Notes: generated by a model not told the origin, from the letters alone. A stretch of 64,000 bases of DNA from Bacilli bacterium (GCA_051872635.1 JBJEEA010000004.1:12739-76738), one strand, 5' to 3'; positions 22,841-59,405 are shown, counted from the stretch's first letter. Program-made: numbers and translations.

Positions 22841-22916
22841 AAATTAATAGACCTTAGGCTATTAATTTCTTTTTGAAGACCTTAGGCTTCAAAAAAAGTG
22901 AGGAGACTACAGGCTC
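22841..22916 (+). repeat. Cluster of three hairpins with AC-YNNA-GG apex
   Basis: AAATTAATAG-ACCTTAGG-CTATTAATTT; TTTTTGAAG-ACCTTAGG-CTTCAAAAA; GAG-ACTACAGG-CTC. Confidence 0.85.
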
Positions 22917-23045
22917 TGAACTTAACAAAACATTTGCTTTTTTATAAAATATGTAGTATAATTTAATGCAGTGGTTATTCTTTTTAATTTTACATTTTTG
23001 TAGTTTTATTTTTTTAACGAAAAAATTTAGAGAAAGGAGAATTTA

Positions 23046-24719
23046 ATGAATACAAAAATAATCCCTCTTGGGGGACTTGGTGAAGTCGGTAAAAACATGT
23101 ATGTAGTAATGCATGATTCGGAAATTATTATTGTCGACTCTGGTGTTATGTTTCCAGATGATGAACTACTTGGAATCGACTATGTTATTCCCGACTATAC
23201 CTTTTTAAAAGAAAATGAAAGTAAAATTAAGGCACTTTTTATTACGCATGGACACGAAGATCATATTGGAAGTATTCCCTTTTTACTTCAAAGTGTGAAT
23301 ATTCCTAAAATTTATGCTCCAGCGAACGCTAAAGAGCTTATTGAAAAGAAATTAGATGAAAGAAATATTATATATAAAAATTTAATTGTTTACGATGAAA
23401 ACACTATTGTTAAAACGAAATACTTTAATGTAGAATTTTTTAGAACAACTCACTCTATTCCTGATTCTCATGGTCTTGCAATTGGTACTCCTGATGGTAC
23501 TATTGTCATGACTGGAGATTTTAAGTTTGATATGACTCCTATTGGACCAATGGCTAATTTACATAAGATGGCTAGATTAGGTGAAAAAGGGGTAGCAGTA
23601 CTTATGAGTGATTCTACTAATGCTCTGTCTCCTGGAACTTCGCTTAGTGAATCTGTAGTTGATGAAAATTTAGGAGAGATTTTTGCTACTTGTAAATACA
23701 ATAGAATTATTCTCGCTACGTTTGCTTCAAATGTATATAGAATTAAACATATTATTGAAACTTGTAAAAAGAATAATAGAAAGATTGCTCTATTTGGAAG
23801 AAGTATGGAGAATACTGTTGATATTGCCCTTAAATGTGGATATTTTAAAGATAAGAGTATTATTGTTACAGCGGAAGAAGCTAATCATATGAAGCCTAGT
23901 GAAGTATGTCTTTTATGTACAGGTAGTCAAGGTGAACCACTCGCAGCACTATCACGTATTGCCAGTGGTACGCATAGACAAATTACACTAATGCCTAATG
24001 ATGTTGTTATATTCTCTTCTTCTCCTATCCCAGGAAATACGGCTTCAGTATCAAGAACGATTAATAAACTATACAAGAAAGGCGTTAAAGTATTTACTAA
24101 TTCTACTGTAGATATTCACTCATCAGGACATGCTAATCAAGAAGAACTTAAGCTCATGATAAGATTATTTAAACCTAAATACTTTGTTCCTTATCATGGT
24201 GAATTTAGAATGCTTAAAACTCATGCTGACCTTGGAGTGATGTGTGGTGTAGATAAAGAAAATACTTTTGTCTTAGAAAACGGCGATGTTTTGGATTTAT
24301 GTAAAGGTACTCTAAAAAAGGGTGGAAAAGTTCAAGCAGGTGAAGTTTATGTCGATGGATCGCGTATTGGAGATGTAGGAAGTGCCGTTATTAAGGATAG
24401 AATTCTGATGAGTAATAATGGTATTTTGGTTATCATTGCCAATATTGATCTTCAAAATAAAGTACTTTTGAGTAGTCCTGCTATTACTACTAGAGGATAT
24501 ATTTTGGTAAATGAAAATGCTGAACTTATTCGAGAAGTGCAAAATAAGGCAGAAGAGATTATTCGAAACGAACTTGCTAAAAAAATATTTAATTTTAATG
24601 ACATGAAGACGGAAATGATTAATGGTCTTATGCCAATATTATCGGATAAAACGGGAAGAGTTCCAATTATCTTGCCGATTGTTATGGATGTTAAGACAAA
24701 TAAAGTAGAGATCAAGTAA
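23046..24719 (+). CDS. rnj: Ribonuclease J
   Basis: PLGGLGEVGKNM, THGHEDHIG, HSIPD, GSQGEP and HSSGHA. Confidence 0.98.
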   Translation: MNTKIIPLGGLGEVGKNMYVVMHDSEIIIVDSGVMFPDDELLGIDYVIPDYTFLKENESKIKALFITHGHEDHIGSIPFLLQSVNIPKIYAPANAKELIEKKLDERNIIYKNLIVYDENTIVKTKYFNVEFFRTTHSIPDSHGLAIGTPDGTIVMTGDFKFDMTPIGPMANLHKMARLGEKGVAVLMSDSTNALSPGTSLSESVVDENLGEIFATCKYNRIILATFASNVYRIKHIIETCKKNNRKIALFGRSMENTVDIALKCGYFKDKSIIVTAEEANHMKPSEVCLLCTGSQGEPLAALSRIASGTHRQITLMPNDVVIFSSSPIPGNTASVSRTINKLYKKGVKVFTNSTVDIHSSGHANQEELKLMIRLFKPKYFVPYHGEFRMLKTHADLGVMCGVDKENTFVLENGDVLDLCKGTLKKGGKVQAGEVYVDGSRIGDVGSAVIKDRILMSNNGILVIIANIDLQNKVLLSSPAITTRGYILVNENAELIREVQNKAEEIIRNELAKKIFNFNDMKTEMINGLMPILSDKTGRVPIILPIVMDVKTNKVEIK

Positions 24720-24725
24720 AAGAAG

Positions 24726-24762
24726 AAAAGACAGTTTATTTTTATAATAGATTGTCTTTTTT
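24726..24762 (+). terminator. Intrinsic terminator after rnj
   Basis: AAAAGACAGT...ATTGTCTTTT hairpin ending in a T-run. Confidence 0.6.
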
Positions 24763-24862
24763 ATAAAACAATATATTAGTTCCACTACAGAAAATTTTAA
24801 AATAAACTCAAGATTTAGTTTGCTTTGTTTTATATTTATGTTATAATTTAAGTGTGATAATT

Positions 24863-25684
24863 ATGAATATATTGGTGACTATAAATAGAAATTATTTGAA
24901 ACAACTATTAATTTTATTAAAATCTTTACAAAAAAGTAATGATAATGTATTATTTGATGTTTTTGTTATGGCTAAAGATATAACTGATTTAGATATTAAA
25001 AATATTCAAGAAAATTTATCAAAAAAAATTACTATACATTTAATAAATATTCCTGATAGTGAAATTGATAATTTCCCAGTTGTAGAAAAAAGATATCCTA
25101 TTGAAATATATTTTAGATTATTTGCAACTAAATATTTACCACAAGATATTGATAAAATATTATATTTAGATACAGATATAGTTGTTATTAATTCCTTACA
25201 AAAACTTTATGATATGGATTTTCAAAATAATTATTTTATTGCCACTACGCATGTTCGAAAATTTATTCATAAGTTTCATGAAGTTAGATTAAATATGAAC
25301 AGTAGTAATGTTTATGTTAATACAGGGGTTTTATTGATGAATTTAAAGGCTTTAAGAAAAACCAATATTGAAAGAGACGTTATTAACTTTGTAGATAAAA
25401 ATAAGTATAAATTGATGTTACCTGATCAAGATATATTAAGTGCTTTATATGGTGATAAAGTCATGTTGGTTGATGCCCTAATTTATAATTTAGGTGAGAG
25501 AGGATATAATTTATATAACTTAAATAATAAAAATAAAATAGATTTGAATTGGGTAAGAAAAAACAGTGTTATTATTCATTATTATGGACGTAATAAACCT
25601 TGGGCTAAAAATTATCGTGGTGAATTAAATGTTTTTTACAATGAAATAGTTGATGAAAGGGAAGTTATACACAAGAATGTATAA
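24863..25684 (+). CDS. Glycosyltransferase family 8
   Basis: YFRLF, ILYLDTD, YVNTGVLLMNL, PDQDILS and IIHYYGRNKPW. Confidence 0.9.
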   Translation: MNILVTINRNYLKQLLILLKSLQKSNDNVLFDVFVMAKDITDLDIKNIQENLSKKITIHLINIPDSEIDNFPVVEKRYPIEIYFRLFATKYLPQDIDKILYLDTDIVVINSLQKLYDMDFQNNYFIATTHVRKFIHKFHEVRLNMNSSNVYVNTGVLLMNLKALRKTNIERDVINFVDKNKYKLMLPDQDILSALYGDKVMLVDALIYNLGERGYNLYNLNNKNKIDLNWVRKNSVIIHYYGRNKPWAKNYRGELNVFYNEIVDEREVIHKNV

Positions 25685-25916
25685 CTTTCTTTAGTATTAT
25701 TTATAATATTTTCCTTTTATATAGATTAGAAGTGTAAAAAAACATCTAATTTAATAATTACATATACCAATATGACCAATAAGGATATAATAGTAAAAGA
25801 AAAAGTTATAAAAGCTAGTTATGGAGAAGTTAATTTAATCAAAAAATATATAATCACCTATAAATATTAGTTAAATAAAAGATAAAAATAAATACTAGTA
25901 TATTAAAAGTAAAAAG

Positions 25917-26354
25917 CTATAGATACTCTTTAAAAATATCTATAGTTTTTTCTTGAAATTGTAAAAACTCTTTAGCTAGTTCCAAATCTTTATCGGATGC
26001 TTCCTTTTCATAATCTTTAATTTTCTTTTCCATGTCGATAGTTCCCATCGATACACCTTTAATAAGAAGGTCCGCTATAGCAGAATCACTATTATCGTGT
26101 TTGACTTCTTTGCTGATGCCCATTTTTGCCATCATTTTCTCAAATATACCAGTTTCGGATATTTCAGCTTTTTCTTTTTTTAAATACTTTTTAGTCTTAC
26201 TCTTCCATTCTTCATACTCTTTAAGAACATCTTCAAGTACTTGTTTAATTTTATTATCTTTGTCTTTTAAATCTTCAAGAAGTTTAGTTAGTGTATAAGA
26301 AGCCATCTCGGCATCTTGATAAATATGTAATACTAGTTCATTATTTTCTTTCAT
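25917..26354 (-). CDS. Conserved-type helical (possibly ferritin-like) hypothetical protein
   Basis: 145 aa with strong RBS; LHIYQDAEM...SDSAIADLLIKGVSMG; all-helical pattern. Confidence 0.65.
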   Translation of the reverse strand: MKENNELVLHIYQDAEMASYTLTKLLEDLKDKDNKIKQVLEDVLKEYEEWKSKTKKYLKKEKAEISETGIFEKMMAKMGISKEVKHDNSDSAIADLLIKGVSMGTIDMEKKIKDYEKEASDKDLELAKEFLQFQEKTIDIFKEYL

Positions 26355-26632
26355 AGAAGTCTCCTTTCACATATATTATTAACACTTTGATATAAAATAT
26401 AATTGTTATTTTCATACATAATCTAACTTTATAAATGACCGCTAGTACATTAGAAATTAAAAATATAATAATAAATTAATTGAATAATATCTATTAGGAA
26501 AAAATTAAATGGAAAAAAAGCAATAGCGAAATCTATTCATAATATTACTAAATTTGTTTTAGAAACTAAGATATTTATTTAATTTACTTCTTAAAATATA
26601 CATGTTATAATATTTCAAAAGGAAGTGCTGTA

Positions 26633-27082
26633 ATGAAAAGAATATATGTAATTGCCAATACAAATTTTAATATTGAAAATAAGGACTATAATAATATTTT
26701 AATAGAAAATTGGAATAGTATTGTAAATAAAGAAGATATAGTATATCATTTGGGTAATTTTGGGATAGGAACTTTAGAGGAATTAAAGTCATTATATGAT
26801 AAGTTAAATGGTATTAAATATCTAATACTAGGGGAAGAAGATATGCGTTATGATAAAGATTTTTTTGATGAAATAGGTTTTAAAGAAGTATATGAACATG
26901 AAATAGTAATCGGTAAGTACGTTCTTACGTATTATCCTAAAGATGTTCTAAATGGCATGATAAATATTTATGGTAAAGATAATTGTGAAGATATAGTTAG
27001 TAATTTTAAAAATAAGAATTATGTATGTGTATCGGCAGAGAATATAAATAGTAGACCTATTCTATTAAAGGAAGAAGAATAG
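26633..27082 (+). CDS. Calcineurin-like phosphoesterase homolog lacking canonical metal ligands
   Basis: IYVIANTNF...NWNSIVNKEDIVYHLGNF...YLILGEED aligns to the SDTHF/NWNxxV/YHLGDF/GNHD family with ligands substituted. Confidence 0.7.
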   Translation: MKRIYVIANTNFNIENKDYNNILIENWNSIVNKEDIVYHLGNFGIGTLEELKSLYDKLNGIKYLILGEEDMRYDKDFFDEIGFKEVYEHEIVIGKYVLTYYPKDVLNGMINIYGKDNCEDIVSNFKNKNYVCVSAENINSRPILLKEEE

Positions 27083-27092
27083 CTAAATATTA

Positions 27093-27134
27093 AAATAAAA
27101 AGACAGTAGCATTTTTACTACTGTTTTATTTTGT
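27093..27134. terminator. Bidirectional terminator between convergent genes
   Basis: AATAAAAAGACAGTAG...CTACTGTTTTATT inverted repeat with A- and T-runs. Confidence 0.6.
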
Positions 27135-27136
27135 AG

Positions 27137-28236: not shown

Positions 28237-28299
28237 GTTACCGCTGTTAATTATTTACTTTTGTTCCACATTGTTCCGTTTGCGGTATAAAAGTAATTC

Positions 28300-29703: not shown

Positions 29704-29735
29704 ATAATTTCTCCTTATGGCTAATTATTATAACA

Positions 29736-31397
29736 TTAATCTTTCTTTTTGCCAATTCTTCCATAATGATTTCTAACTAAATTCCTATTTTCATATATAA
29801 AATTAATTTTTGGTATTACATTATACTTAAACATAATGGTTATATTTCTATTTTCATCAATTACTATTTTATCTATTAATGTATTAATTAATTCTTTTTT
29901 AGTTTTCTTTAAATCTAACAGCTCTTTTATCTTTTTAGTATAATCTGGTAGTATATTTGTTTTATTCTTTATATTTTGTTTTTTTAATTTTTCTTCTTCT
30001 ATTATGCTATTAATTTTTTTGAGTTTAATTTCTGATTCTGTAGATAATTCTTTATATAATTGAGTCGAAATAACATTATTATATCTATCATTATATAATG
30101 TTGATAATTTATTCATGATTTGTTCTTTTTCTTTTAATAAATCATTTATTTTTTTATCTATATCTTCTGTTTCTCTATGAACATTTTTTTGTACTTCTTT
30201 ATTTAATTCTTCTACATCTAACTCTTTTATAAATGTTGATACTGAATTATTAAATTGTTCTAGTATTTGTTCTTCTAAATAATCATATGGATAAAAATGT
30301 GAACTACATCTTCCTCTCTTTGGATCTCTAGAATATTTATTACAATTAATTGACCAGTAATCAAGTTTCTTTCTGTAATAAACAGATAATCTATTACCAC
30401 ACTCTTTACAAAATATTTTACCTTCTAAAATTCTTTTTGGTCTTTCTGTTTTTAAACTATAATTTCTAGTTTTTCTTTTTCCTAAAGATTTAATATATTT
30501 AAAAGTTTCTTTATCCACTAAAGGTTCATGAGTATCTTCAACTATTACCCATAAACTTTCATCTAAAGTTATTTTCTTCTTTGATTTATAATTTACTTTT
30601 GTTTGAGTGTGCTGAACCATATCGCCAGTATAAATTCTATTACTTAAAATTTTCTTTACTGTTGATATATTCCAACTATCTCTATCAATCAATCTAGAAG
30701 AATAATTAGTTTTCTTATATCCTGCTGGTGTAGGTGCATTCATATCATTTAATCTTGTTGCTATTTCTGTTGGTCCTATTCCCTCTGCTCTCCAATTAAA
30801 TATTTTTTTTACAATTGGTGCAGTTTCTAGATTAGGTATTAAATGTCCTTTATCTAATGGATCTCTCATATAACCATAACATGGCTGACTTCCTATAAAT
30901 TTACCATTCTTTCTTTTATCATTTAATACATTTCTTATCTTTATAGAATTTTGTTTACTATAATAATCATTACAAGCAATTATAAATGTTGAAGAATCAT
31001 TACTAGCTTGATTTTTAAAACTATCATATGATTCAAGTATAGATATAAATCTTATATTATTCTCAGGAAAAAATGTTTCAATATAATACCCTGTCATAAC
31101 ATGATCTCTACCAAATCTAGATAAATCTTTAACAACTACGCAATTAATCTTTTTTTGTTTTATATCTTCTAACATTTTTTGAAATCCAGGTCTATCAAAA
31201 TTAGTTCCAGAATATCCATCATCTATATATTCTCCACACAGATTAAAATTATTATTTTTAACATAACTTCTTAGTAATTCTTTTTGATTAATAACACTTT
31301 CACTATCAGATTCATATTTTTTATCTTTATCTTCTTGAGATAATCTTATATAGATTCCAACATTGAAATCCATTTCAGTTAAGTAAGTATTATACAT
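29736..31397 (-). CDS. Large serine recombinase (resolvase + recombinase + Zn-ribbon + coiled coil)
   Basis: GIYIRLSQED (catalytic Ser), DDGYSGTNFDRPGF, VVKDLSRFGR, PCYGY, and Zn ribbon CKECG...CNKY...C. Confidence 0.96.
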   Translation of the reverse strand: MYNTYLTEMDFNVGIYIRLSQEDKDKKYESDSESVINQKELLRSYVKNNNFNLCGEYIDDGYSGTNFDRPGFQKMLEDIKQKKINCVVVKDLSRFGRDHVMTGYYIETFFPENNIRFISILESYDSFKNQASNDSSTFIIACNDYYSKQNSIKIRNVLNDKRKNGKFIGSQPCYGYMRDPLDKGHLIPNLETAPIVKKIFNWRAEGIGPTEIATRLNDMNAPTPAGYKKTNYSSRLIDRDSWNISTVKKILSNRIYTGDMVQHTQTKVNYKSKKKITLDESLWVIVEDTHEPLVDKETFKYIKSLGKRKTRNYSLKTERPKRILEGKIFCKECGNRLSVYYRKKLDYWSINCNKYSRDPKRGRCSSHFYPYDYLEEQILEQFNNSVSTFIKELDVEELNKEVQKNVHRETEDIDKKINDLLKEKEQIMNKLSTLYNDRYNNVISTQLYKELSTESEIKLKKINSIIEEEKLKKQNIKNKTNILPDYTKKIKELLDLKKTKKELINTLIDKIVIDENRNITIMFKYNVIPKINFIYENRNLVRNHYGRIGKKKD

Positions 31398-31466
31398 TCA
31401 ATCCTCCTTTTCTTCTTACTTGACTGAGTATTAAGACAATTTAATAATACCGCATTATTAAAAAAA

Positions 31467-46304: not shown

Positions 46305-46386
46305 GATAAAAGAAAAACTATAGATATTATCTATAGTTTATACTTTAATTTTAAAGACTAAAGGCTTTAAAATTCTTTTTGAAGAC
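46305..46386 (+). repeat. ~82-bp repeat, copy A (CTATAGATA palindrome + AC-TAAA-GG hairpin + half hairpin)
   Basis: Matches 52772-52854 except for one A-run indel and one substitution. Confidence 0.9.
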
Positions 46387-46399: not shown

Positions 46400-46837
46400 T
46401 TATCTACTTCTTCCCTTTTTATTTTCAATGTGTTCTTCTCTTAATTCTTTGATATATTCTATTATATTAACATATTTATTTTCTTCTTCACTAAAGTACC
46501 AAATAGATGTTAAATCTTCTAAAGGGATAGCTCCCATTTGACCTTCTATTACTTTATCTGCTGGTGCTTGTAAGACTGGTCTTTTATTGTAATAAAATAA
46601 TTTATCTCCTCCTCTAGACCAGAATAATTCTTTTTTATGGCTTCCTTTTACTTTTTCTTTGGCTCTTACATATCCTGTATTTATAATATCTTCTATTTGG
46701 AGCATACCTGTTACTCTATATACAGAAGTATCTTTTGTTTTTAAGGAATTTGGATTATCTTTACCAAAGGCTAGTTCTTGAGTAAAAACTCTATTTCTAG
46801 TACTTTCTATTCTATCATCAATATTTTCTTCTGACAT
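46400..46837 (-). CDS. Hypothetical protein
   Basis: 145-aa ORF with AAGGAG RBS. Confidence 0.7.
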   Translation of the reverse strand: MSEENIDDRIESTRNRVFTQELAFGKDNPNSLKTKDTSVYRVTGMLQIEDIINTGYVRAKEKVKGSHKKELFWSRGGDKLFYYNKRPVLQAPADKVIEGQMGAIPLEDLTSIWYFSEEENKYVNIIEYIKELREEHIENKKGRSR

Positions 46838-51177: not shown

Positions 51178-51283
51178 AATAATCTCCTCACTACTTTATA
51201 TAATTATATCACATTTTGTCGTATTTGTTTGTAAAAAAATAATATTTTTGCTTTTAATGGGAAAATTATATTGGGTGTTAGAT

Positions 51284-51727: not shown

Positions 51728-51828
51728 AATATTTATGTATTCTAGTATGCATAACTTTTCTATTTAGAAATATAATAATAGTACAATAATACCTTGACTT
51801 TTATTGATAGTTATTGTATTATTGTATT

Positions 51829-51940
51829 ACCGGAGAGAAATCTTGTCAGGTCGATAGCTCAATGTTGATTTTTTTAAATTAAGTGTACTTTTGAGTACAC
51901 CACTTGAGTTGGGAGGAGACTTATGTCTCCTTTCTTTTTT
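51829..51940 (+). ncRNA. Candidate structured ncRNA convergent with the DUF3800 gene
   Basis: TTGACT-N17-TATTAT promoter (51794-51822); multi-helix fold; AGGAGAC-TTAT-GTCTCCT + T-run terminator; no ORF. Confidence 0.65.
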
Positions 51941-52679
51941 ATGGAAAAAATATTTTATAATCTATAAAATCTAAGTTATTACTTATATTATTTTTATTTT
52001 CGATATTATCTTTTACCTTTCTTCTTGTTGTACCTGCAATTAAGTCGGCAGCTTGTACTAGATAACTTTTTCCCGAATCTTGGTATGACAATACTATTTC
52101 TAATTTACCATATAAAACTTTATTATAAAAAGTATCATAATTAAAATTTGATATGCCATGTAATAATTCTTCAATTAAACCATCTTTCAAATTATAATAA
52201 CCGTTACTCTTAGTAGATTGTTCATCTATATTTATTATTAATCTTACATTTTTATGTGGGTCTATTTTTTTGTTTTTTATTAACTCTTGTACTACACTTT
52301 TTATCAATCTTCTTATTGTATAGTCTATGTATCTTCCTTTAGAAGCTTTATTATTTATTATATAATCATATACTTTATTATTATCTATAATTAGTGCTAT
52401 ACTAAAGTATGATTTTATATAATTCATTATTCGTCTTTTATGTTTTGGTTTAATATTGGTATTTTTTATTTCTGTGCATTTTTTGTTACATTTTTCTACT
52501 TTGCAGTAATGACACTTTATTTCATTTATTATTTTACGATATTGAGTTATAAACTTATCTTTTTCTTCTTTTGATAAAAATACTAGACCAGCATATACTG
52601 CCACTTTTTCTTTCCTTGTCAATTTTCCTGAATCGTCTAGATTTATATATATTTCTTGGTACTCTTCTTTTTTATTCAT
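51939..52679 (-). CDS. DUF3800 domain protein
   Basis: IYINLDDSGK (N-terminal acidic motif), INIDEQ, and QDSGKSYLVQAADLIAG (Q-x-AD motif). Confidence 0.8.
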   Translation of the reverse strand: MNKKEEYQEIYINLDDSGKLTRKEKVAVYAGLVFLSKEEKDKFITQYRKIINEIKCHYCKVEKCNKKCTEIKNTNIKPKHKRRIMNYIKSYFSIALIIDNNKVYDYIINNKASKGRYIDYTIRRLIKSVVQELIKNKKIDPHKNVRLIINIDEQSTKSNGYYNLKDGLIEELLHGISNFNYDTFYNKVLYGKLEIVLSYQDSGKSYLVQAADLIAGTTRRKVKDNIENKNNISNNLDFIDYKIFFP

Positions 52680-52771
52680 GTAATGACTCCCTTCAAGTAT
52701 TTAATGCTTATTATAACACTTGCATTTATAGTTGTCATTATTTTTTATTTATTAAATTAACAATTTTTGTG

Positions 52772-52869
52772 GATAAAAGAAAAAACTATAGATATTATCT
52801 ATAGCTTATACTTTAATTTTAAAGACTAAAGGCTTTAAAATTCTTTTTGAAGACCTTAGACTTCAAAAA
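52772..52869 (+). repeat. ~82-bp repeat, copy B, plus a further AC-CTTA hairpin
   Basis: See 46305-46386; continues TTTTTGAAG-ACCTTAGA-CTTCAAAAA. Confidence 0.9.
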
Positions 52870-52900
52870 CCCAGAGAAACCGAAGGGTTCGAAGGGAATA

Positions 52901-53473
52901 CTAATTTATACTAAAATATTTAGCTAAGTCTTTAAATACTCTTTTATGATAGAATATTAAGAGTATTATTAAGCTTAGTAATCCTACTCCTCCTAATACT
53001 ATAATAGGCCAGTTTAATTTTACTACTTTAGTTAAAGCTAATATGCAGAATATTATAGCCCCAATAGCAGTAAAAAATAATGGTATAAATTTTTTTCTTT
53101 GTAATTTAAATTCTGATAAGAATAATACTAACTGAAATATTATTATACTAAAGAGAATTATGTTTATAATAAAATATGAAAAACTAGTTTTTTCTATTAT
53201 ATCTATCATGTATAGATAAGCACATATTATCATTACTACAATAGTTATTCTTCTTATTAGGGTATTATCTATTAATGGTTTATTTAAGAAAGCAAAATAG
53301 AATATTATTTCTCCTCCAATAACATAGAACATCCATTTTTTACCTCCGACTGATAGATTTACTATTGTACAAGTAATAATTGATATTAGAAATATTATTA
53401 ACATTATTCTTCTAAAGATAAGGAATTTATTTACTTCTTTTTTTATTTTAGGATAATTATTTTTTATTGTCAT
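52901..53473 (-). CDS. Membrane protein (DUF6320-like) paired with the acetyltransferase
   Basis: About 6 TM helices; ends KYFSIN; this gene pairing is familiar in Firmicutes. Confidence 0.6.
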   Translation of the reverse strand: MTIKNNYPKIKKEVNKFLIFRRIMLIIFLISIITCTIVNLSVGGKKWMFYVIGGEIIFYFAFLNKPLIDNTLIRRITIVVMIICAYLYMIDIIEKTSFSYFIINIILFSIIIFQLVLFLSEFKLQRKKFIPLFFTAIGAIIFCILALTKVVKLNWPIIVLGGVGLLSLIILLIFYHKRVFKDLAKYFSIN

Positions 53474-54941
53474 AGTTCTCACTTCCATATACTTTTACTT
53501 TTATATTATTTTGTACTAATAGATTATATAGATTATTTTCTACTGATGTATTTAAAGTATATTTACTTATTGATAATGTTAATATATTATTACATGTTAT
53601 AACAGAAAATAGTAATTTATTTGTAATAGTGGTTCCTAAAACAAAGTCCATCTTTTCTACTTCTTTTTGCATATTATTTGGAAGATTTATATTACCAAGA
53701 TTAGATAATACTGTAGTAAATGATTTATCTCCAGCATATCCATAGATTATTTTTGCTACTGGTTTCTTTATGAATAGTGGAATAAATCTTAGATACTTTA
53801 TTAATTTATTTGTATATTCTAATATTCCATTTAAATTATCGATATTATTCTTTTCATGTAACTGTCTTTTTACTTCGATTAATACATTATCTAAATCCGT
53901 TATTTCTTCTCTTGGTATATTTATTGTTACATATAATGAGAAGTTTCTTAATGTTTTAGATGGATAGTACTTTCGCATATTTACTGGTACTTGAATTTTA
54001 ATTGGCCCTTCTTTAGAAGTTGAATATGATATAGATATAAATAATAGACTTAATATTATTTCTGTAATAGTGGCATTTTTATTTTTAGATAATTCTTTTA
54101 TATCTTTTAAATCAATATCGAAATGTAATATTTGACATGGTCTTACATTAGATCTTTTTCCATCTATTTGAACTGCCTTACCTTCAATAAGACTCTGCGA
54201 TTTTACATTTGGTGTTTTATCTTTAAATTCATCTTTTGATTCTGCTTCTTTTGGTTTTTCATTTATATCTAAAACAGTATCGTTAGTACTTATTTCTTTT
54301 CCTAATAGTTTTAGATAAGTAGCCACTAGTGTAGAAAGAAAGATAGTAGCACTTGTTCCGTCCGCTAGAATATGGAAGTATTCAATACTTATTCTATTTT
54401 TATAATATACTGCTTTAAATGACTGTTTACCTATATTAGATACATTTATATATGAACATGGTAGTTTTTTATCTTCATAGATATGGAATCTTTTCTTGAT
54501 ACCATCAATATAATGCCAAAAGAATCCTTTTCTTACTGATGTCCTAAAGGTAGGAAATCTTTTCATAGTAAAAAGAAGAGCTATTTGAAATATTTCTGGT
54601 ACTATATCTTCTTTTAGATAACATGATACTCTATATACACTCATCCAATTTTCTCTCATTGATAATGGATATATTTTAGCAGCATTATCGAGTGGATACC
54701 AATTTTCTGGTTCTTTTTGATAGATATCTCCTAGATTATCTATAGATAGTATCTTTAATGTTTCTTTAAGATTTTTTCCTTGTTTTAGGTAATAGTTTAT
54801 TGCTTTTTCAAAATCTTCATTTAGTTTAATAGTCTCTTTTTTTGTTAAAGATATATTATTATTTAGATTATTAAAATATTCTTTTATTATTTCTACTTCT
54901 TTTATATTAAACTTTTTATAAAATGGATTTTTCTTTTTCAA
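53457..54941 (-). CDS. Alcohol acetyltransferase / condensation-domain-like acyltransferase
   Basis: WYPLDNAAKIYP, RFPTFRTSVRKGFFWHY, FHILADG (HxxxDG), PVNMRKYYPSKTLRNF and VLSNLG. Confidence 0.8.
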   Translation of the reverse strand: MKKKNPFYKKFNIKEVEIIKEYFNNLNNNISLTKKETIKLNEDFEKAINYYLKQGKNLKETLKILSIDNLGDIYQKEPENWYPLDNAAKIYPLSMRENWMSVYRVSCYLKEDIVPEIFQIALLFTMKRFPTFRTSVRKGFFWHYIDGIKKRFHIYEDKKLPCSYINVSNIGKQSFKAVYYKNRISIEYFHILADGTSATIFLSTLVATYLKLLGKEISTNDTVLDINEKPKEAESKDEFKDKTPNVKSQSLIEGKAVQIDGKRSNVRPCQILHFDIDLKDIKELSKNKNATITEIILSLLFISISYSTSKEGPIKIQVPVNMRKYYPSKTLRNFSLYVTINIPREEITDLDNVLIEVKRQLHEKNNIDNLNGILEYTNKLIKYLRFIPLFIKKPVAKIIYGYAGDKSFTTVLSNLGNINLPNNMQKEVEKMDFVLGTTITNKLLFSVITCNNILTLSISKYTLNTSVENNLYNLLVQNNIKVKVYGSENYDNKK

Positions 54942-55075
54942 TATACCACTTCCGTATTTATTTTACCAACTTTCTGACGAAAAGTCACTAGTTTCAAATT
55001 AAAAAATATTGCAAAAGAAAAAGTGTTTGCTTATTGTATATCATTATTTTTGTTTATTCAAGTAGTTTGAATATA

Positions 55076-55126
55076 TTTTTTAAAGACTTTAGCTTAAAAA
55101 CCTCTTAAGACTATAGGCTTAAGAGG
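55076..55126 (+). repeat. AC-YNNA-GG hairpin cluster
   Basis: CCTCTTAAG-ACTATAGG-CTTAAGAGG (55101-55126), preceded by a degenerate copy. Confidence 0.85.
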
Positions 55127-55136
55127 AATACTTAAA

Positions 55137-55511
55137 TTAATTATATTTAATTTCTGTGATATATGGTTTAGCTGCGATTAGTCCCATTTTAGGGATGATA
55201 TGGATTTCAGCGCTTTTTTGATTTTCATTTAAGATTATATTTTGTACTACATCTTTTTCAGTAGATTTAAATATAATTTCATGTGTTCCAAATGGTAAGT
55301 TACAAGACAGACTACTATTATTTTTAAGAGTGCCAAGCTTGCTATCATCAACATATACTTCAAAAGAAATAGCAAAGCCCATTGTTTTCTTTTCTCTAAT
55401 AACTGTTAATTTTCCAACACTATTTTCATCGGATAGTTTAGTTGGAGATCCACAATAAGGACAAAATTTTGAGCCAAGATCAATTTTATAACCACAATTT
55501 AAACATATCAT
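55137..55511 (-). CDS. Zinc-ribbon domain protein
   Basis: CLNCG...FCPYCG N-terminus followed by a beta-rich domain. Confidence 0.75.
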   Translation of the reverse strand: MICLNCGYKIDLGSKFCPYCGSPTKLSDENSVGKLTVIREKKTMGFAISFEVYVDDSKLGTLKNNSSLSCNLPFGTHEIIFKSTEKDVVQNIILNENQKSAEIHIIPKMGLIAAKPYITEIKYN

Positions 55512-55621
55512 AATTAATCACTTCCTCTACTTATAGAGTATCATATTTTTATATTTTTAGCAATTTACTTATATACAATTTTTAATTTATGCTGTATAAT
55601 TAAAATAGGTGAAGAATAGAT

Positions 55622-57394
55622 ATGGGGAATAATGTATTAGGAAAAATTATTGCTATTAATGATAGTATTGTGTCTGTTAGATTAGATGTTAATATATATG
55701 ATTTTGATGGTTTGATTGGTAAGAATGTTGTTTTTAGAGATGTAGATTTTTCTAATATTGGTGAAGTTATAGCCATTGGAAATGGTATTATGCAAGTATC
55801 ACTAGTTGGAGAAGTACGTGGTAATAAGTTTTTATTTGGAGATATTACTAAACCTTCTTTTAAAGCATTATGTTATTTAATTGATGACAATACTTTAAAT
55901 ATTATTCTTAATAGTGATGCTCCTAATACAATTACACTTGGTAAATCCTATATTTATCCTAATTATGATATTAAATTAGACGTCGGTAATTTTTTCTCGA
56001 ATCATTTTGCTATTTTAGGTAACTCTGGTAGTGGTAAATCTTATTCAGTAGCTAAGATATTGCAAAGTGTCTTCTACCAATGTAAGAGTCTTCCCTTTTA
56101 TTCTAATATCTTTTTATTTGATGCATATGGTGAATATCAGAGGGCTTTCTCAAGAATTCACGAAGTAAATGAAAATATTAACTACAAAGTATATACAACG
56201 GACTTAAATAGTACAGAATTTGAAATTTTAAGTTATCCTTTTTGGCTTCTAGGAGTAGATGATTTATGTTTACTTATGGGTGTTACTTCTAAAGAACAAA
56301 TTCCAATAGTTGAAAAGGCTCTTAAGTTAGTTAGTTACTTTTCAAGAAAAGAAGATGAAGTTATTAATCAAAAAAACGATATTATTGCTAGGTGTTTACT
56401 TGATGTTTTATTTTCGGGTAAGAGTCCTAGTATGATTAGAAATAAGATTGTATCTATTTTGACTAAGTTTAATACCTCTAATCTTAATTTGGAAATAAAA
56501 CTTGAAAAAGGTGGATGGACAAGAACGATTAGACAGTGTTTATTCGTCGAACAAGGTGGAGAATTTGCAGATGTAGAACTAGTTATTGAATACCTAGAGA
56601 GTTTATGTCTTGATAATTTTGAACTATCACTTCCTAATGGTGAATATATGTATTCAATGAAAGATTTTTCCGTAGCCCTAGAATTTGCTTTGATATCAGA
56701 AGGAGCATTAAATAGTGATACTACTTTTGAACTAGCTAATACTCTTAAAGTTAGATTTAATAATCTTATGAATAGTGATTATGCTAGATATTTTGATTAT
56801 AATGGTTATGTTAATAGAGAAGGATATATTAATTTACTTCTTACTTGTAATAATGGTAGAAAAGCGCAAATTGTAAACTTTAATATTAATTATGTCGACG
56901 ATAGATTTGCTAAAAATCTTGTTAAAATATATTCAAAATTATTATTTGATTATATTGTATCTTTAAATCAAAGAGCTTCAATGCCATTTCATATTGTACT
57001 TGAAGAAGCACATAGATATGTTCAAAATGATAGTGATGTAGAAATATTAGGATATAATATATTTGAAAGAATTACTAAAGAGGGTAGAAAATATGGATTA
57101 CTTCTCGGTATAGTATCGCAAAGACCATCAGAACTATCTGAAACTACGATATCTCAATGTAGTAATTTCTTAGTATTTAAAATGTTTCATCCAAAAGATT
57201 TACAGTTTATTAAAGATATTATATCTAGTGCCGATATTACAGTGACAAATAAAATTAAGACACTACATCCTGGTACTTGTATTATGTTTGGTACAGCTTT
57301 TAAAATGCCAACGATTGCAATACTAGATAAACCTAATCCTGAACCTCTTAGTCAGAGTTGTGATATTAATAAAACTTGGTATATACATAGTTAA
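55622..57394 (+). CDS. HerA/FtsK-like (DUF87) ATPase
   Basis: N-terminal barrel; HFAILGNSGSGKS; FDAYGEY; VLEEAHRY; ITKEGRKYG...SQRPSEL. Confidence 0.9.
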   Translation: MGNNVLGKIIAINDSIVSVRLDVNIYDFDGLIGKNVVFRDVDFSNIGEVIAIGNGIMQVSLVGEVRGNKFLFGDITKPSFKALCYLIDDNTLNIILNSDAPNTITLGKSYIYPNYDIKLDVGNFFSNHFAILGNSGSGKSYSVAKILQSVFYQCKSLPFYSNIFLFDAYGEYQRAFSRIHEVNENINYKVYTTDLNSTEFEILSYPFWLLGVDDLCLLMGVTSKEQIPIVEKALKLVSYFSRKEDEVINQKNDIIARCLLDVLFSGKSPSMIRNKIVSILTKFNTSNLNLEIKLEKGGWTRTIRQCLFVEQGGEFADVELVIEYLESLCLDNFELSLPNGEYMYSMKDFSVALEFALISEGALNSDTTFELANTLKVRFNNLMNSDYARYFDYNGYVNREGYINLLLTCNNGRKAQIVNFNINYVDDRFAKNLVKIYSKLLFDYIVSLNQRASMPFHIVLEEAHRYVQNDSDVEILGYNIFERITKEGRKYGLLLGIVSQRPSELSETTISQCSNFLVFKMFHPKDLQFIKDIISSADITVTNKIKTLHPGTCIMFGTAFKMPTIAILDKPNPEPLSQSCDINKTWYIHS

Positions 57395-57448
57395 TTGATA
57401 TATATAATAAAAAGATAATTCTTTATTTGGAATTATCTTTATTTTATT

Positions 57449-57501
57449 CTTCTTAAGCCTATGGTCTTAAGAAGTAAATTAGAGCCTAAGGTCTCTAATT
57501 T
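57449..57501 (-). repeat. Two AC-YNNA-GG hairpins in inverted orientation
   Basis: Minus strand: AAATTAGAG-ACCTTAGG-CTCTAATTT and CTTCTTAAG-ACCATAGG-CTTAAGAAG. Confidence 0.85.
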
Positions 57502-58562
57502 AATACTTTTTTCTTTTTAATTTCTTTTTCAACTAAATCTTCTCTAAATATATTTATGTTTTTTAATATTTTATTTAATGATTCTTGATCTAATTTTATA
57601 TCTATTATTTTTAGAGCATCCTCAAGTGATATGTCTTTCATTATTTCTTTATTTAATTTTTTTATTTTTTCCAAGAAACTAGGATCTTTCTTATATTCTA
57701 TATAATTGTATATAGACATTAGTCCTATTCCATAAAATAACACTGTAAAAATAATATCTTTATTGTTGTTTATTTTTGTATTGAATTTTTTTAGGAGGTC
57801 ATCATAATCTTTATCTTCTTTATATAAAAATTTATAGTTTTCTTTTGATACTTCTCCAAGTAAAAAGTACAACAGTGCTATTTTTACTATATAGTAACCT
57901 TTTTTGATAAAACTATGAAGATTTTTATATTCTTCTATTTTAAACATCTTTGCTTCTTTAGCATAGCCTATTTGTTCTAAATAATCTGCATAAATAAATT
58001 CTTCAGTAAAGGATAATAATTCGGTTAAAATATCGTTTACGCCATCTCTTTTTTCTGGAGGTTGATTTTTATAATGGGATATTTCATGAACCCATATTAT
58101 TGAATCTGTTATTAGAGTATTATTGTAGACATTTATGGTCTTGTGAATTCCTTCGTATATGATTATCTTCTCTTTTGTTTTAGGGTCTTCAAAGTACTCT
58201 GTTATTACATAATAGTTATTATTTCCTGTGTATAGTTCATAATTAGATGCTTCTTTGGGATTATTGGTTCTTATTATATTAAATGTTCCATCTTTAATTA
58301 TTTCATTAAATTTAAAATCAATACCTATATTTTTATAGAAGTCATCTATTATTTTTTCTACTTCAACAATACTTGTTCTTTGACCTTGTCTTAAATTTTG
58401 CTCCTCAACATCTAGTTCTTGCATATTATAGTATAGAAAAGCTATTAAATTATATATATTTTGCATATTATCAAATAGTAATATATTGTCATTATAATTT
58501 TCATCATAGAATTCCTTTAAAAATGAATTTACTGAATGTTCATTATTAATTATTTCATCCAT
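57495..58562 (-). CDS. Hypothetical protein with HEXXH (zincin-like) motif
   Basis: IWVHEISHYKNQ...LTELLSFTEE. Confidence 0.7.
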   Translation of the reverse strand: MDEIINNEHSVNSFLKEFYDENYNDNILLFDNMQNIYNLIAFLYYNMQELDVEEQNLRQGQRTSIVEVEKIIDDFYKNIGIDFKFNEIIKDGTFNIIRTNNPKEASNYELYTGNNNYYVITEYFEDPKTKEKIIIYEGIHKTINVYNNTLITDSIIWVHEISHYKNQPPEKRDGVNDILTELLSFTEEFIYADYLEQIGYAKEAKMFKIEEYKNLHSFIKKGYYIVKIALLYFLLGEVSKENYKFLYKEDKDYDDLLKKFNTKINNNKDIIFTVLFYGIGLMSIYNYIEYKKDPSFLEKIKKLNKEIMKDISLEDALKIIDIKLDQESLNKILKNINIFREDLVEKEIKKKKVLN

Positions 58563-58612
58563 ATAATTCTCCTTGCGCTATATTATAGCAGAATATTTTG
58601 AAAAAACAAGTT

Positions 58613-59223
58613 TTATTTCATTTCTACCTCTTTTTCTTTTATATATTCATAGTTTAAATAATTATCTTTGGTTACTACTGACTCTCCTAGATTTTTTTCG
58701 ATGTCTTCTCTAGCTACTTTGGCAACATGACCACCCATTCTAGCTGCTTTTTTATTTTGACTTAATCCTTGGGGTCTATGTTTTTTAGAAATCCATTCTT
58801 CATCATAGTCTTTTGCTCTATAAGTATCAATCGCTCTTTGTACTGTTAATGATGGGTCAAATGCTTTATCTATTCTTTGACTACCTAATTTTGCTAACCA
58901 CTGTTTAATAGGCCAGCATTCTTACTAGGTATTGACTCTATAATTCTAAGCATTCCTTCAATATCAACAACATCAGTCATACGATATTTTCCATCTTTGG
59001 CTTTTAGTTTCAACTGGTCACAATTTGTGACCGTTTCATTTACTTCTTTTTTTAGTCTTGATTTTAAAGCGTTCCAATAGTGTCTTGGATCTTTGCTTTC
59101 AGTTAAAATTTTAACTACATCTACTACACTAATATAGTACTTTTCACTTTCTTTGTCCTATATTGTTCTAATTGTTTCGTTATTGAATATTTTCCTTATT
59201 AAATGCATTTTATTTTCTTCCAT
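58613..59223 (-). pseudogene. Decayed Bro-N domain protein
   Basis: Manual: FNNETIRTI*DKESEKYYISVVDVV..LTES..PRHYWNALK..L...QLKLKAKDGKYRMTD...RIIESIPSKNA/fs/IKQWLA...GGHVAKVAREDIEKNLG. One nonsense codon, one frameshift and an apparent internal deletion. Confidence 0.8.
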
Positions 59224-59318
59224 AATCTATACCCTCATTGCTTCCATTTCAATATACTATACATGTATTTCAATGTCAGTCTCATATATTTATTTGCTTA
59301 CTTTATAAACAAAACAAC

Positions 59319-59405
59319 TTAATTTTAAAGACAATCTGGGCTTTAAAATTATTTTTTGAAGACTACAGGCTTCAAAAAACCTCATTAAACTTTAGGTTAA
59401 TGAGG
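59319..59405 (+). repeat. Cluster of three hairpins with AC...GG apex
   Basis: TTTTAAAG-ACAATCTGGG-CTTTAAAA; TTTTTTGAAG-ACTACAGG-CTTCAAAAAA; CCTCATTAA-ACTTTAGG-TTAATGAGG. Confidence 0.85.

What the first reader, a model, noticed from the sequence alone, without database searches (positions are those of the whole stretch)
22841..59405. Modular intergenic hairpin family: variable stems, invariant AC-YNNA-GG apex
At least 12 hairpins occur in six clusters: 22841-22916, 46350-46386, 52817-52869, 55076-55126, 57449-57501 (inverted) and 59319-59405. Stems fall into interchangeable types (TTTTAAAG, TTTTTGAAG, CCTC(T/A)TTAA, AAATTA..AG) with full compensatory change. The apex is nearly always AC-(C/T)NNA-GG. 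On that strand it can fold as a bulged A, then C-G and Y-G pairs and an NNA triloop. The C/T variation is tolerated only on that strand (G-U/T wobble), implying strand-specific selection on structure. One cluster lies between divergent genes, so these are not simply terminators. Most clusters sit just upstream of accessory genes. Candidate roles are REP/BIME-like substrates of an HUH (RAYT/Y1) enzyme, a protein-bound RNA hairpin, or recombination hot spots for gene acquisition.
Basis: partly seen in the sequence, partly recalled or inferred. Interest (0 to 1): 0.7.

Follow-up and report, generated by a model that had tools for sequence, protein, structure and literature searches.

The report
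Triple-hairpin intergenic repeat modules
The hairpins are real copies of a repeat family confined to a group of uncultured low-GC gut bacteria: short hairpins with one shared loop, stacked in fixed-order groups of up to three at operon borders, resembling the REP/BIME and BOX repeats of other bacteria but not yet described.

Summary
The window has 14 hairpin units in six clusters: 11 clean, 3 variant or decayed, plus one truncated arm. Strict members number 9, against 0.005 expected by chance.

The units form a module, H1-H2-H3, head to tail and always in one polarity.
- H2 is T5-6GAAG / CTTCA5-6.
- H3 has a GC-rich foot and often tandem G.A mismatches.
- The shared loop is better written AC-N3-6-GG, after a closing G-C pair.

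Modules sit at the same operon borders (uvrA 3', rnj 5', secA 5', soj 5' and others) in many related species. They evolve more slowly than synonymous sites. Their H1 side faces variable gene content.

Orientation follows neither transcription nor GC skew, and 15 of 76 modules lie between divergent genes. So they are not plain terminators. Yet rc(H3) and H1 are each followed by a T-run supplied by H2, and some relatives have a canonical terminator in the module's place.

The same loop hairpin occurs in Streptococcus SSRC8-type elements and in Lactobacillaceae repeats.

Best reading: a REP/BIME- or BOX-like repeat family, partly used as transcript punctuation, whose loop is read by an unknown factor.

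The parts
22841..22868 (+). Cluster 1, H1: aaattaatag-ACCTTAGG-ctattaattt
   Evidence: Covariance model hit of 37.6 bits. Orthologous unit in L100 and L101.
22870..22895 (+). Cluster 1, H2: tttttgaag-ACCTTAGG-cttcaaaaa
   Evidence: Covariance model hit of 40.3 bits.
22897..22922 (+). Cluster 1, H3: AGT-GA-GGAG-ACTACAGG-CTCT-GA-ACT, a stem with tandem G.A mismatches. The whole module lies about 125 nt upstream of the rnj start, between divergent genes.
   Evidence: Sequence and fold. The same H3 type occurs at the rnj locus of L100 and L101.
46347..46374 (+). Cluster 2, H1: aattttaaag-ACTAAAGG-ctttaaaatt
   Evidence: Covariance model hit of 39.9 bits.
46376..46386 (+). Cluster 2, truncated H2: tttttgaagAC, broken just inside the apex. 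It lies 13 nt from the stop of the minus-strand gene 46400-46837.
52815..52842 (+). Cluster 3, H1: aattttaaag-ACTAAAGG-ctttaaaatt
   Evidence: The L142 ortholog has apex ACTACAGG.
52844..52869 (+). Cluster 3, H2: tttttgaag-ACCTTAGA-cttcaaaaa
   Evidence: Covariance model hit of 35.8 bits.
52870..52896 (+). Cluster 3, H3: CCC-AGA-GAA-ACCGAAGGG-TTC-GAA-GGG. It abuts the stop of the DUF6320 gene (52901-53488, minus strand).
52786..52804 (-). Canonical terminator-like hairpin (ctatagataatatctatag followed by a T-run, read on the minus strand). It follows module 3 in the direction of the minus-strand genes. The same element lies at 46318-46336, next to cluster 2.
   Evidence: It is conserved next to both modules in L103 as well.
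55077..55100 (+). Cluster 4, decayed first unit: tttttaaAGACTTTAGCttaaaaa
   Evidence: The L142 ortholog is intact: tttttaaag-ACTTTAGG.
55101..55126 (+). Cluster 4, H3-type unit: cctcttaag-ACTATAGG-cttaagagg. It lies 10 nt after the stop of the zinc-ribbon gene (55137-55511, minus strand).
   Evidence: The reverse strand is flagged as terminator-like.
57475..57502 (-). Cluster 5, H1-type unit on the minus strand: taaattagag-ACCTTAGG-ctctaattta. It overlaps the stop of gene 57495-58562.
57449..57474 (-). Cluster 5, H3-type unit on the minus strand: cttcttaag-ACCATAGG-cttaagaag. It lies next to the HerA terminator at 57411-57440.
59320..59351 (+). Cluster 6, H1: taattttaaag-ACAATCTGGG-ctttaaaatta, with a 10-nt apex
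   Evidence: Covariance model hit of 29.2 bits.
59352..59379 (+). Cluster 6, H2: ttttttgaag-ACTACAGG-cttcaaaaaa
59380..59405 (+). Cluster 6, H3: cctcattaa-ACTTTAGG-ttaatgagg. It lies 7 nt after the uvrA stop (uvrA 59413-62235, minus strand).
   Evidence: The reverse strand plus the T-run is flagged as terminator-like. Orthologs are aligned.

Best explanation
These are copies of one clade-specific family of short palindromic intergenic repeats. In kind they are closest to REP/BIME elements of Proteobacteria and BOX elements of streptococci.

Anatomy (shown):
- The unit is a 26-32-nt hairpin with an AT-rich stem of 9-11 bp that usually ends in a G-C pair.
- The apex is 5'-AC-N3-6-GG-3'.
- Units abut head to tail, all in one polarity, in modules of up to three, H1-H2-H3.
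- H1 is AT-only.
- H2 is T5-6GAAG / CTTCA5-6.
- H3 has a GC-rich foot and often tandem G.A mismatches.

Behaviour (shown):
- Modules sit at operon borders and have stayed at the same borders since the species of the clade diverged.
- They change more slowly than synonymous sites.
- They gain, lose and fuse units by slippage between apexes.

How they act (inferred):
(i) In cis they act as hairpin punctuation of transcripts. The two T-rich arms of H2 give H1 (in one direction) and rc(H3) (in the other, with a GC-rich foot) a following U-run. So the module is a two-way terminator/insulator and 3'-end cap, stronger in the H3-to-H1 direction. That is the direction in which modules usually follow a stop codon.
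(ii) The invariant apex letters, the fixed polarity and the purine-purine mismatches exist on one strand only. They mark recognition of that strand, as single-stranded DNA or RNA, by a trans-acting factor that spreads or maintains the family. That factor is not identified.
For: Reality:
- The window holds 9 strict members against 0.005 expected by chance.
- Stem lengths are bimodal.
- The covariance model finds 11 units and none elsewhere.

Family and module:
- In 555 kb of low-GC relatives the commonest loops of perfect hairpins are all of this type.
- The fixed H1-H2-H3 order appears in about 70 modules.
- Hairpins next to H2, which were not selected for, carry AC..GG in the same polarity in about 39 of 42 distinct cases. 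Only one has an inverted apex.

Persistence and constraint:
- The same modules occur at uvrA, rnj, DUF6320, zinc-ribbon, HerA, secA and soj in many species.
- The uvrA module is 82-97% identical between species, against 59-73% at uvrA third codon positions for distant pairs.
- One compensatory pair is seen in L102.

Turnover:
- Units are fused in L052.
- H2 is decayed in L105 and L061.
- H2 is truncated in cluster 2.
- The apex is inverted in L045.

Punctuation role:
- Modules that follow a stop codon by 45 nt or less are about 3:1 in the H3-first orientation.
- rc(H3) plus a T-run is flagged as terminator-like at clusters 4 and 6.
- H1 is followed by at least 5 T in 8 nt in 81% of modules, and rc(H3) in 65%.
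- L083, L150, L152 and L207 have a canonical terminator where relatives have the module.

Wider kinship of the apex hairpin:
- All 20 Lactobacillales hits are true hairpins and carry only the three commonest apex types. The 36 hits in other taxa behave as chance matches.
- The Rfam SSRC8_2 consensus holds GaG-ACCCUAGG-CuC.
Against: - No partner enzyme was found. REP hallmarks are missing: there is no GTAG/CGTC foot, no alternating orientation and no flanked RAYT.
- Each hairpin is weak, about -7 kcal/mol.
- Canonical terminators stand beside several modules: the HerA 3' end, clusters 2 and 3, and hpf-secA. There the module is not needed for termination.
- 15 of 76 modules lie between divergent genes, and about 30 lie some 100 nt upstream of a gene start, ahead of its predicted promoter.
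- G.A-type H3 units also occur right after stop codons, where their reverse strand pairs poorly.
- No transcript data exist for this clade.
- Many of the counted modules are orthologs of each other, so the counts overstate the number of independent cases.
Confidence: 0.5

Rival explanations
1. They are only intrinsic terminators or insulators of an AT-rich genome. On this view the shared apex is just a convenient GC clamp inherited by duplication, and no trans factor reads it.
For: - Modules lie 7-40 nt after stop codons at uvrA, the zinc-ribbon gene and DUF6320.
- The scan tool gives terminator-like calls there.
- T-runs follow the outer hairpins in both directions.
- Relatives have canonical terminators at the same place.
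Against: - Modules also lie between divergent genes and upstream of promoters.
- Canonical terminators stand directly beside some modules.
- Polarity is the same for all units of a module, with one inverted apex among about 42 neighbours. G.A mismatches are conserved on one strand only. A terminator does not need either feature.
- The same three apex types recur in unrelated-looking Lactobacillales elements.
Confidence: 0.2
2. They are a protein-bound RNA element or small RNA module. The three loops, in the AC..GG sense, would be bound by an RNA-binding protein, as part of UTRs or of their own transcript, as in Streptococcus SSRC8.
For: - The one-strand features are of the RNA type: G.U wobble at Y3-G7 and tandem sheared G.A.
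- SSRC8 is an expressed RNA that carries the hairpin in this sense.
- The Lentilactobacillus elements lie in a transcribed 3' UTR.
Against: - In the commonest context (30 of 76 modules) both flanking genes are on the opposite strand. The AC..GG strand would then need its own promoter.
- No conserved promoter precedes H1 and no terminator follows H3 (my reading).
- There is no Rfam match even at E<=10.
- No RNA data are available.
Confidence: 0.15
3. They are structure-specific recombination sites, read as folded single-stranded DNA by an HUH or tyrosine enzyme in an integron-like or IS200/RAYT-like way. Such sites would drive gene gain and loss at the H1 edge.
For: - The H1-side flank is a synteny break at all six clusters, while the H3 side stays attached to a conserved gene.
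- One rearrangement breakpoint lies inside an apex (cluster 2).
- One deletion lies between two apexes (L052).
- One strand folds better under DNA parameters in 72 of 76 modules.
Against: - No recombinase or Y1 gene is linked to modules. The one IS200 TnpA seen has unrelated ends.
- Breakpoints are not at a fixed base: at uvrA, 12 nt beyond H1 are still shared.
- Variable genes do not carry their own module as cassettes would.
- Operon borders are where gene flux occurs in any case.
Confidence: 0.1

Closest known systems
REP / BIME elements (repetitive extragenic palindromes) of Enterobacteria and Pseudomonas, with their RAYT transposase (PMC3733652, PMC3116915)
   Same: - Both are short (20-40 nt) imperfect palindromes.
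- Both are extragenic, mostly at gene 3' ends and operon borders.
- Both cluster in composite arrays.
- Both have a polarity defined by conserved asymmetric features.
- Both persist at orthologous sites.
- Both are proposed to act in termination and mRNA stabilisation.
   Different: - Here the conserved block is the loop, not a GTAG/CGTC tetranucleotide at the stem foot.
- Units are co-oriented in tandem, not alternating or inverted pairs.
- The stems are AT-rich and interchangeable.
- No RAYT was found. This could not be tested genome-wide.
BOX elements of Streptococcus pneumoniae and S. suis (boxA-boxB(n)-boxC) (PMC3049150)
   Same: - Both are modular repeats.
- In both, an independently folding hairpin module is tandemly repeated in variable number.
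- Both are intergenic.
- Both vary in unit number by slippage.
- Both can be transcribed and can affect neighbouring genes.
   Different: - The window modules have no flanking boxA/boxC 'clamp' and no terminal inverted repeats or target duplication.
- Units are 27-28 nt, not 45 nt.
- From my memory of the BOX consensus the sequence is unrelated. This was not tested here.
Rfam RF02616 SSRC8_2 (Streptococcus sRNA 8; detected in S. pyogenes, PMC3675131)
   Same: - The family consensus contains the same hairpin, auuuuuGaG-ACCCUAGG-CuCaaaaau, in the RNA sense.
- A Streptococcus hillyeri repeat found with my hairpin pattern matches the family at E 2e-13.
   Different: - SSRC8 is an RNA of about 280 nt, closed by a long outer stem, with other unrelated hairpins.
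- The window modules do not match the model at E<=10.
- Only this one hairpin is shared.
Bidirectional intrinsic terminators
   Same: - A hairpin followed by a T-run on both strands.
- Placement right after stop codons and between convergent genes.
- Replaced by a canonical terminator in some relatives.
   Different: - There are three hairpins instead of one.
- The T-runs are themselves the arms of the middle hairpin.
- The loop is conserved and the polarity fixed.
- Modules also occur between divergent genes and beside ordinary terminators.

Membership tests
REP/BIME | Short imperfect palindromes in extragenic positions, in many dispersed copies | tested here: met
   - 14 units in six intergenic clusters within 64 kb.
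- About 100 clusters in 555 kb of related loci, though those loci were chosen for holding at least one.
REP/BIME | Conserved GTAG or CGTC tetranucleotide at one end of the palindrome | tested here: not met
   The outer stem columns are the most variable, and conservation is confined to columns 9-12 and 17-20 around the loop.
REP/BIME | Composite arrays with alternating orientation (BIME) or inverted pairs (REPIN) | tested here: not met
   Units of a module are co-oriented.
REP/BIME | A RAYT (Y1/HUH) gene in the genome, flanked by the repeats | tested here: inconclusive
   - A regular-expression screen of about 0.96 Mb of held low-GC loci found one IS200-type TnpA. Its end hairpins are unrelated and it is not flanked by modules.
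- A whole-genome search was not possible.
BOX elements | boxA and boxC ends that pair with each other, enclosing tandem boxB modules; terminal inverted repeats and target-site duplication | tested here: not met
   - The window modules have no conserved flanks beyond H1 and H3.
- Clamped versions exist only in Lactobacillales.
Rfam RF02616 SSRC8_2 | Match to the covariance model at or above the gathering score | tested here: not met
   - There is no hit in the window at gathering threshold, nor in 52700-59500 at E<=10.
- The Streptococcus hillyeri element scores 50.6 bits against a gathering score of 72.
Intrinsic terminators | A stable stem-loop directly followed by a U-run at a transcript's 3' end | tested here: inconclusive
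   - Met on sequence grounds for rc(H3) at clusters 4 and 6, and statistically for H1 and rc(H3).
- Not met for cluster 1 or for the other modules between divergent genes.
- No 3'-end data are available.
Integron attC sites | One long imperfect hairpin with R/L boxes and extrahelical bases after each cassette gene, with an IntI integrase and attI nearby | tested here: not met
   - The modules are three separate perfect hairpins.
- The variable genes lack their own module.
- The only recombinase seen in the window is a large serine recombinase at 29736-31397, which lies away from the clusters.

The most novel reading that the evidence does not exclude
The apex hairpin (AAG-AC-YNNA-GG-CTT and its variants) may be a recognition module shared by repeat families that otherwise look unrelated across Bacilli:
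- the triple-hairpin modules of uncultured gut Bacilli;
- SSRC8-type elements of Streptococcus;
- 'clamped' repeats of Companilactobacillus (at least 13 copies);
- inverted pairs in Lentilactobacillus 3' UTRs.

On this reading it is read on one strand by a conserved, still unknown protein. One candidate is a structure-specific single-strand DNA enzyme that copies or maintains the repeats and makes the H1 edge of modules a preferred place for gene gain and loss.
Probability: 0.15. Interest if true: 0.8.

Novelty: new variant of a known kind. Interest (0 to 1): 0.55.

Why it matters
Short palindromic repeats are well studied in Proteobacteria (REP/RAYT) and in pneumococci (BOX). Almost nothing is known for the small-genome, uncultured gut Bacilli.

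This family has three unusual features:
- It is defined by its loop rather than by its stem.
- It is built into a fixed three-part module whose middle hairpin supplies T-runs to both neighbours.
- It has been kept at the same operon borders across species.

If the punctuation role holds, it shows how a 25% GC genome can build two-way terminators from AT-rich hairpins.

If the loop is a protein recognition site shared with Streptococcus SSRC8 and the Lactobacillaceae repeats, it gives a concrete handle, a 12-14-nt hairpin, for finding the partner. That could be tested in cultured lactic acid bacteria.

The modules also break metagenome assemblies, so they matter for binning these organisms.

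Tried and rejected
I therefore worked from one pattern scan of genome contigs, one protein-anchored scan of metagenome contigs, and the window.
- Viral contigs: a tandem-apex pattern gave only unrelated coding tandem repeats.
- Phages and plasmids: no match.
- Rfam: nothing for the modules at gathering threshold or at E<=10. There was nothing for the Companilactobacillus element either.
- Literature search by apex strings: only primers and unrelated sequences.
- Replication-linked orientation: no association with local GC skew, 32 against 27 modules where skew was marked. This is a weak test, because the loci are 8 kb and gene strand confounds it.
- Own promoter upstream of H1: -10-like strings occur, but at no fixed distance. 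I rejected them as evidence in a 25% GC genome.
- Theme among downstream genes (secA, soj, herA, rnj): none found.
- PyrR-, K-turn-, CsrA- and primase-site-like readings of the apex or of H3: considered from memory only. None fits the defining features (H3 has a 1-nt, not a 3-nt, bulge; the apex has GGC, not GGA).
- Apex 'toggling' by gene conversion: rejected. All common apex types are linked by single-base steps, and the closest pair (window against L142) differs by single bases.
- Transcript evidence for the clade: no RNA runs for the window. The 'RNA?' runs for L077 look like DNA.
- Strain-level contigs only showed that assemblies break at the repeats.
- IS200 TnpA in L041: its ends are unrelated.

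Full report
**1. What is in the window**

I scanned every ACNNNAGG occurrence on both strands. Those inside the clusters have perfect flanking stems of 9-10 bp. One weak case, with a 3-bp stem, turns out to be H3 of cluster 1. All other occurrences have stems of 0-2 bp.

Of the perfect hairpins with stems of 9 bp or more and loops of 3-12 nt in the window, roughly half carry this apex. Strict members (ACYNNAGG plus a perfect stem of at least 7 bp) number 9, against a mean of 0.005 in 200 second-order Markov simulations.

A covariance model built from 58 distinct units of related genomes finds 11 units in the window with filters off. It finds none in the other 60 kb. The named strand scores 18-20 bits above the opposite strand.

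Adding the variant and decayed units gives the full count:
- H3 of cluster 1 at 22897-22922.
- H3 of cluster 3 at 52870-52896.
- A decayed unit at 55077-55100.
- A truncated H2 arm at 46376-46386.

The total is 14 units plus one half-unit.

**2. The unit and the module**

It brought in 119 loci of 8 kb, and 68 of them are low in GC (under 31%). Apart from four chance matches and two contigs labelled Campylobacter, these come from uncultured 'Bacilli/Tenericutes' gut MAGs, including Clostridium sp. CAG:302, UMGS1185, UMGS1739, UMGS610 and CP091726.1. Many are syntenic with the window at about 80% nucleotide identity.

In these loci the commonest loops of all perfect hairpins belong to this family.

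The units form a module of up to three abutting hairpins in a fixed order and a single polarity:
- H1 has an AT-only stem and a locus-specific sequence.
- H2 is T5-6GAAG or T5-6AAAG paired with its complement.
- H3 has a GC-rich foot (CCTC.., CACC.., CCC..). Often it also has a tandem G.A/G.A internal loop, as in AGT-GA-GAG[apex]CTC-GA-ACT or CACC-A-GA-GTG[apex]CAC-GA-GGTG.

The hairpins next to H2 were not selected by my pattern. They carry AC...GG in the same polarity in about 39 of 42 distinct cases. The exceptions are two unrelated loops and one inverted apex: L045 has CCATAAGT where its orthologs have ACTTATGG.

The apex is 7-10 nt long. A1, C2, G7, G8 and the closing G-C pair are at least 90% conserved, and the interior varies.

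Two apex folds fit equally well:
- An alternative: an A1.G8 mismatch plus a C2-G7 pair closing a 4-nt loop.

Stem covariation in my alignment is large, with 9 of 9 stem pairs changed on both sides. It is partly circular, because units were chosen for perfect stems.

**3. One-strand features**

- Position 3 is C in 24 and T in 31 of 58 units. A at position 7 or 8 is rare, 3 units each.
- H3 carries purine-purine mismatches on the AC..GG strand. These become pyrimidine-pyrimidine mismatches on the other strand.
- The AC..GG strand folds better in 56 of 76 modules with RNA parameters and in 72 of 76 with DNA parameters. The mean gain is 1.4-1.8 kcal/mol.
- In the window the difference is clear only for cluster 1, at -22.8 against -18.8 kcal/mol.
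- Many of these modules are orthologs of each other, so they are not independent cases.

**4. Where modules sit**

I oriented 76 modules by the AC..GG strand. The strands of the flanking genes (left, right) are then:

| Left, right | Modules |
|---|---|
| -, - | 30 |
| +, - | 16 |
| -, + | 15 |
| +, + | 15 |

Modules within 45 nt of a stop codon are about 3:1 in the orientation that puts H3 next to the stop. Others lie about 95-150 nt upstream of a start codon, ahead of the predicted promoter. The genes involved are secA, soj, a herA-like gene and rnj, which share no functional theme.

Orientation shows no link to local GC skew, 32 against 27. This is a weak test.

In the window, clusters 2, 3, 4 and 6 follow minus-strand genes by about 3-13 nt, with H3 first. 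Cluster 5 lies between convergent genes. Cluster 1 lies between divergent genes.

**5. Evolution**

Modules are anchored to conserved genes across species. The anchors are uvrA 3', rnj 5', DUF6320 3', zinc-ribbon 3', HerA 3', secA 5' and soj 5'.

At the uvrA locus the alignment is good from H1 to the stop codon and fails just beyond H1. There, three lineages have different neighbours. The same holds for all six window clusters: the H1 side faces gene content that differs among relatives.

The whole uvrA module is 82-97% identical between species. uvrA third codon positions are 59-73% identical for the distant pairs. So the module is constrained, or else homogenised.

There is also turnover:
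- Two units fused by a deletion between their apexes in L052.
- A decaying H2 in L105 and L061.
- An H2 broken inside its apex in cluster 2.
- A decayed unit in cluster 4.

The common apex types are linked by single-base steps. The closest pair (window and L142, 98.5% identical in the flanks) differs by single bases. Point mutation in the loop interior is therefore enough to explain the variation.

I also ran a protein-anchored scan, which is unbiased with respect to hairpins. It returned 80 uvrA 3' ends from metagenomes. The module is present only in the closest relatives, those with UvrA C-terminus identity of at least 88%. In those it always has H3 next to the stop. More distant relatives have none in about 6 kb each. 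The family is therefore confined to one clade.

**6. What they may do**

The two arms of H2 are T-rich at their 5' ends on both strands.
- H1 is followed by at least 5 T in the next 8 nt in 81% of three-hairpin modules.
- On the other strand, rc(H3) is followed by such a run in 65%.
- About 3 of the 6 basal letters of H3 are G or C, against 0.6 for H1.

The consensus scan calls rc(H3) plus the T-run terminator-like at clusters 4 and 6. In L083, L150, L152 and L207 a canonical hairpin with a T-run stands just after the uvrA stop, where relatives have the module. This supports a punctuation role that is stronger in the H3-to-H1 direction.

Several facts argue against this being the whole story:
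- Canonical terminators stand beside several modules: after HerA, after modules 2 and 3 in the direction of the minus-strand genes, and after hpf.
- Each hairpin has only about -7 kcal/mol.
- Many modules lie where no transcript should need ending.
- A terminator needs neither the conserved polarity nor the G.A mismatches.

I could get no transcript data for the clade.

**7. Kin outside the clade**

The same scan hit Lactobacillales 20 times. All 20 are true hairpins, and they carry only the apexes ACTACAGG, ACTTTAGG or ACCTTAGG. These are three of the commonest types in the clade. The 36 hits in other taxa show 21 different apexes, and their two free stem letters are complementary at the chance rate of 9 in 36.

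In these bacteria the hairpin is the middle arm of larger 'clamped' multi-hairpin elements:
- Companilactobacillus sp. HBUAS59699 has at least 13 copies of a roughly 150-nt element whose outer stem covaries.
- Lentilactobacillus species have inverted pairs. In L. parabuchneri the pair lies in a 3' UTR of about 390 nt that is covered by metatranscriptome contigs with adapter-marked ends.
- Streptococcus caprae and S. hillyeri carry similar elements.

The S. hillyeri element matches Rfam RF02616 (SSRC8_2, Streptococcus sRNA 8) at 50.6 bits, E 2e-13, which is below the gathering score. The family consensus itself contains auuuuuGaG-ACCCUAGG-CuCaaaaau in the RNA sense. SSRC8 was detected by Northern blot and mapped by circular RACE in S. 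pyogenes, and no function was assigned (PMC3675131).

The window modules do not match that model.

**8. Comparison with known kinds**

The family works like REP/BIME or BOX elements in these respects:
- It consists of short extragenic palindromes in composite arrays at operon borders.
- It is polar.
- It persists at orthologous sites.
- It varies in unit number.
- It is probably useful as transcript punctuation (PMC3733652, PMC3116915, PMC3049150).

It fails their membership tests:
- There is no GTAG/CGTC foot.
- There are no alternating or inverted units.
- There are no boxA/boxC ends.
- No RAYT was seen. An IS200-type TnpA in L041 has unrelated GC-rich end hairpins.

I found no description of this family. 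Rfam has nothing and a text search for the apex strings found nothing relevant. Other first readers of this scan noted the same hairpins in other genomes, but none of those notes was followed up.

**9. Verdict**

This is a real, clade-wide and apparently undescribed variant of the REP/BIME/BOX kind of repeat. It is defined by its loop and by a three-part module.

Confidence by part:
- Anatomy, distribution and constraint: shown.
- The terminator/insulator role: inferred from sequence and from positional replacement.
- A loop-reading factor: inferred from the one-strand conservation and its recurrence in other Bacilli.

Limits:
- Genome-wide numbers, orientation relative to replication, enzyme co-occurrence and transcription remain untested.
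- The window organism comes from pig gut.

Noticed in passing
window 51822-51943 (+): Rfam DUF3800-I RNA (RF02969), 59.3 bits. It converges on the DUF3800 gene at 51939-52679 (Pfam PF12686). This gene-plus-RNA pair is absent from the same position in L057 and L103.
   Followed up: partly
L039:4095-4255 and at least 12 other loci of Companilactobacillus sp. HBUAS59699 (L033, L035, L048, L053, L055, L085, L099, L118, L139): A 'clamped' three-hairpin repeat of about 150 nt with a covarying outer stem. Its middle hairpin is ctttgaag-ACTACAGG-cttcaaag. It has no match in Rfam, plasmids or phages.
   Followed up: partly
L129:4724-5301 (Lentilactobacillus parabuchneri); also L032, L090, L120, L135: Two inverted copies of a Y-shaped structured element, each with the apex hairpin AGACTACAGGCT. 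They lie in the long 3' UTR of the minus-strand gene 5112-6368. Metatranscriptome contigs cover the region at higher depth than its neighbours, and their ends carry adapters.
   Followed up: partly
L113:7507-7749 (Streptococcus hillyeri); L075 (S. caprae); L064: Repeat copies related to Rfam SSRC8_2 (Streptococcus sRNA 8), scoring below that family's gathering score. This suggests that SSRC8 belongs to a dispersed repeat family rather than being a single-copy sRNA gene.
   Followed up: partly
L054 and L143 (contigs labelled uncultured Campylobacter sp., 25% GC): A complete H1-H2-H3 module, including the G.A-type H3. It lies next to a GC-rich hairpin (ggggcgttgcggggtatccccgc). Either the contigs were mis-binned, or the family occurs outside Bacilli.
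   Followed up: no
window 55001-59418: Pig-gut metagenome contigs (runs X1 and X4, laid at 85% likeness or more) join 59418 to 55001 with 'TAG' in between. Some strains or relatives therefore lack the 4.4 kb that holds clusters 4-6, the zinc-ribbon gene, herA and the 355-aa gene.
   Followed up: no
window 57495-58562 (-) and 21076-22740 (-): Two accessory proteins with no Pfam hit, each carrying an HExxH motif (WVHEISHY and AYHEFSHQ). They may be metallopeptidases. Both lie on the variable (H1) side of a module, and relatives of the first lie next to uvrA or rnj in other species.
   Followed up: no
L041, reverse strand 5113-5631: An IS200/IS605-type Y1 transposase gene (YHIVFIPKYRRK...DHIHMLV...YIREQ) with GC-rich subterminal hairpins, in a member of the clade.
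   Followed up: partly
window 52800-59400, as covered by runs X1-X6: Metagenome assemblies of this organism break at the hairpin clusters: contig ends fall at 52814, 52840, 55119, 55133, 57476, 59341, 59382 and 59396. The H2 unit joins many different neighbours in the assembly graphs.
   Followed up: partly
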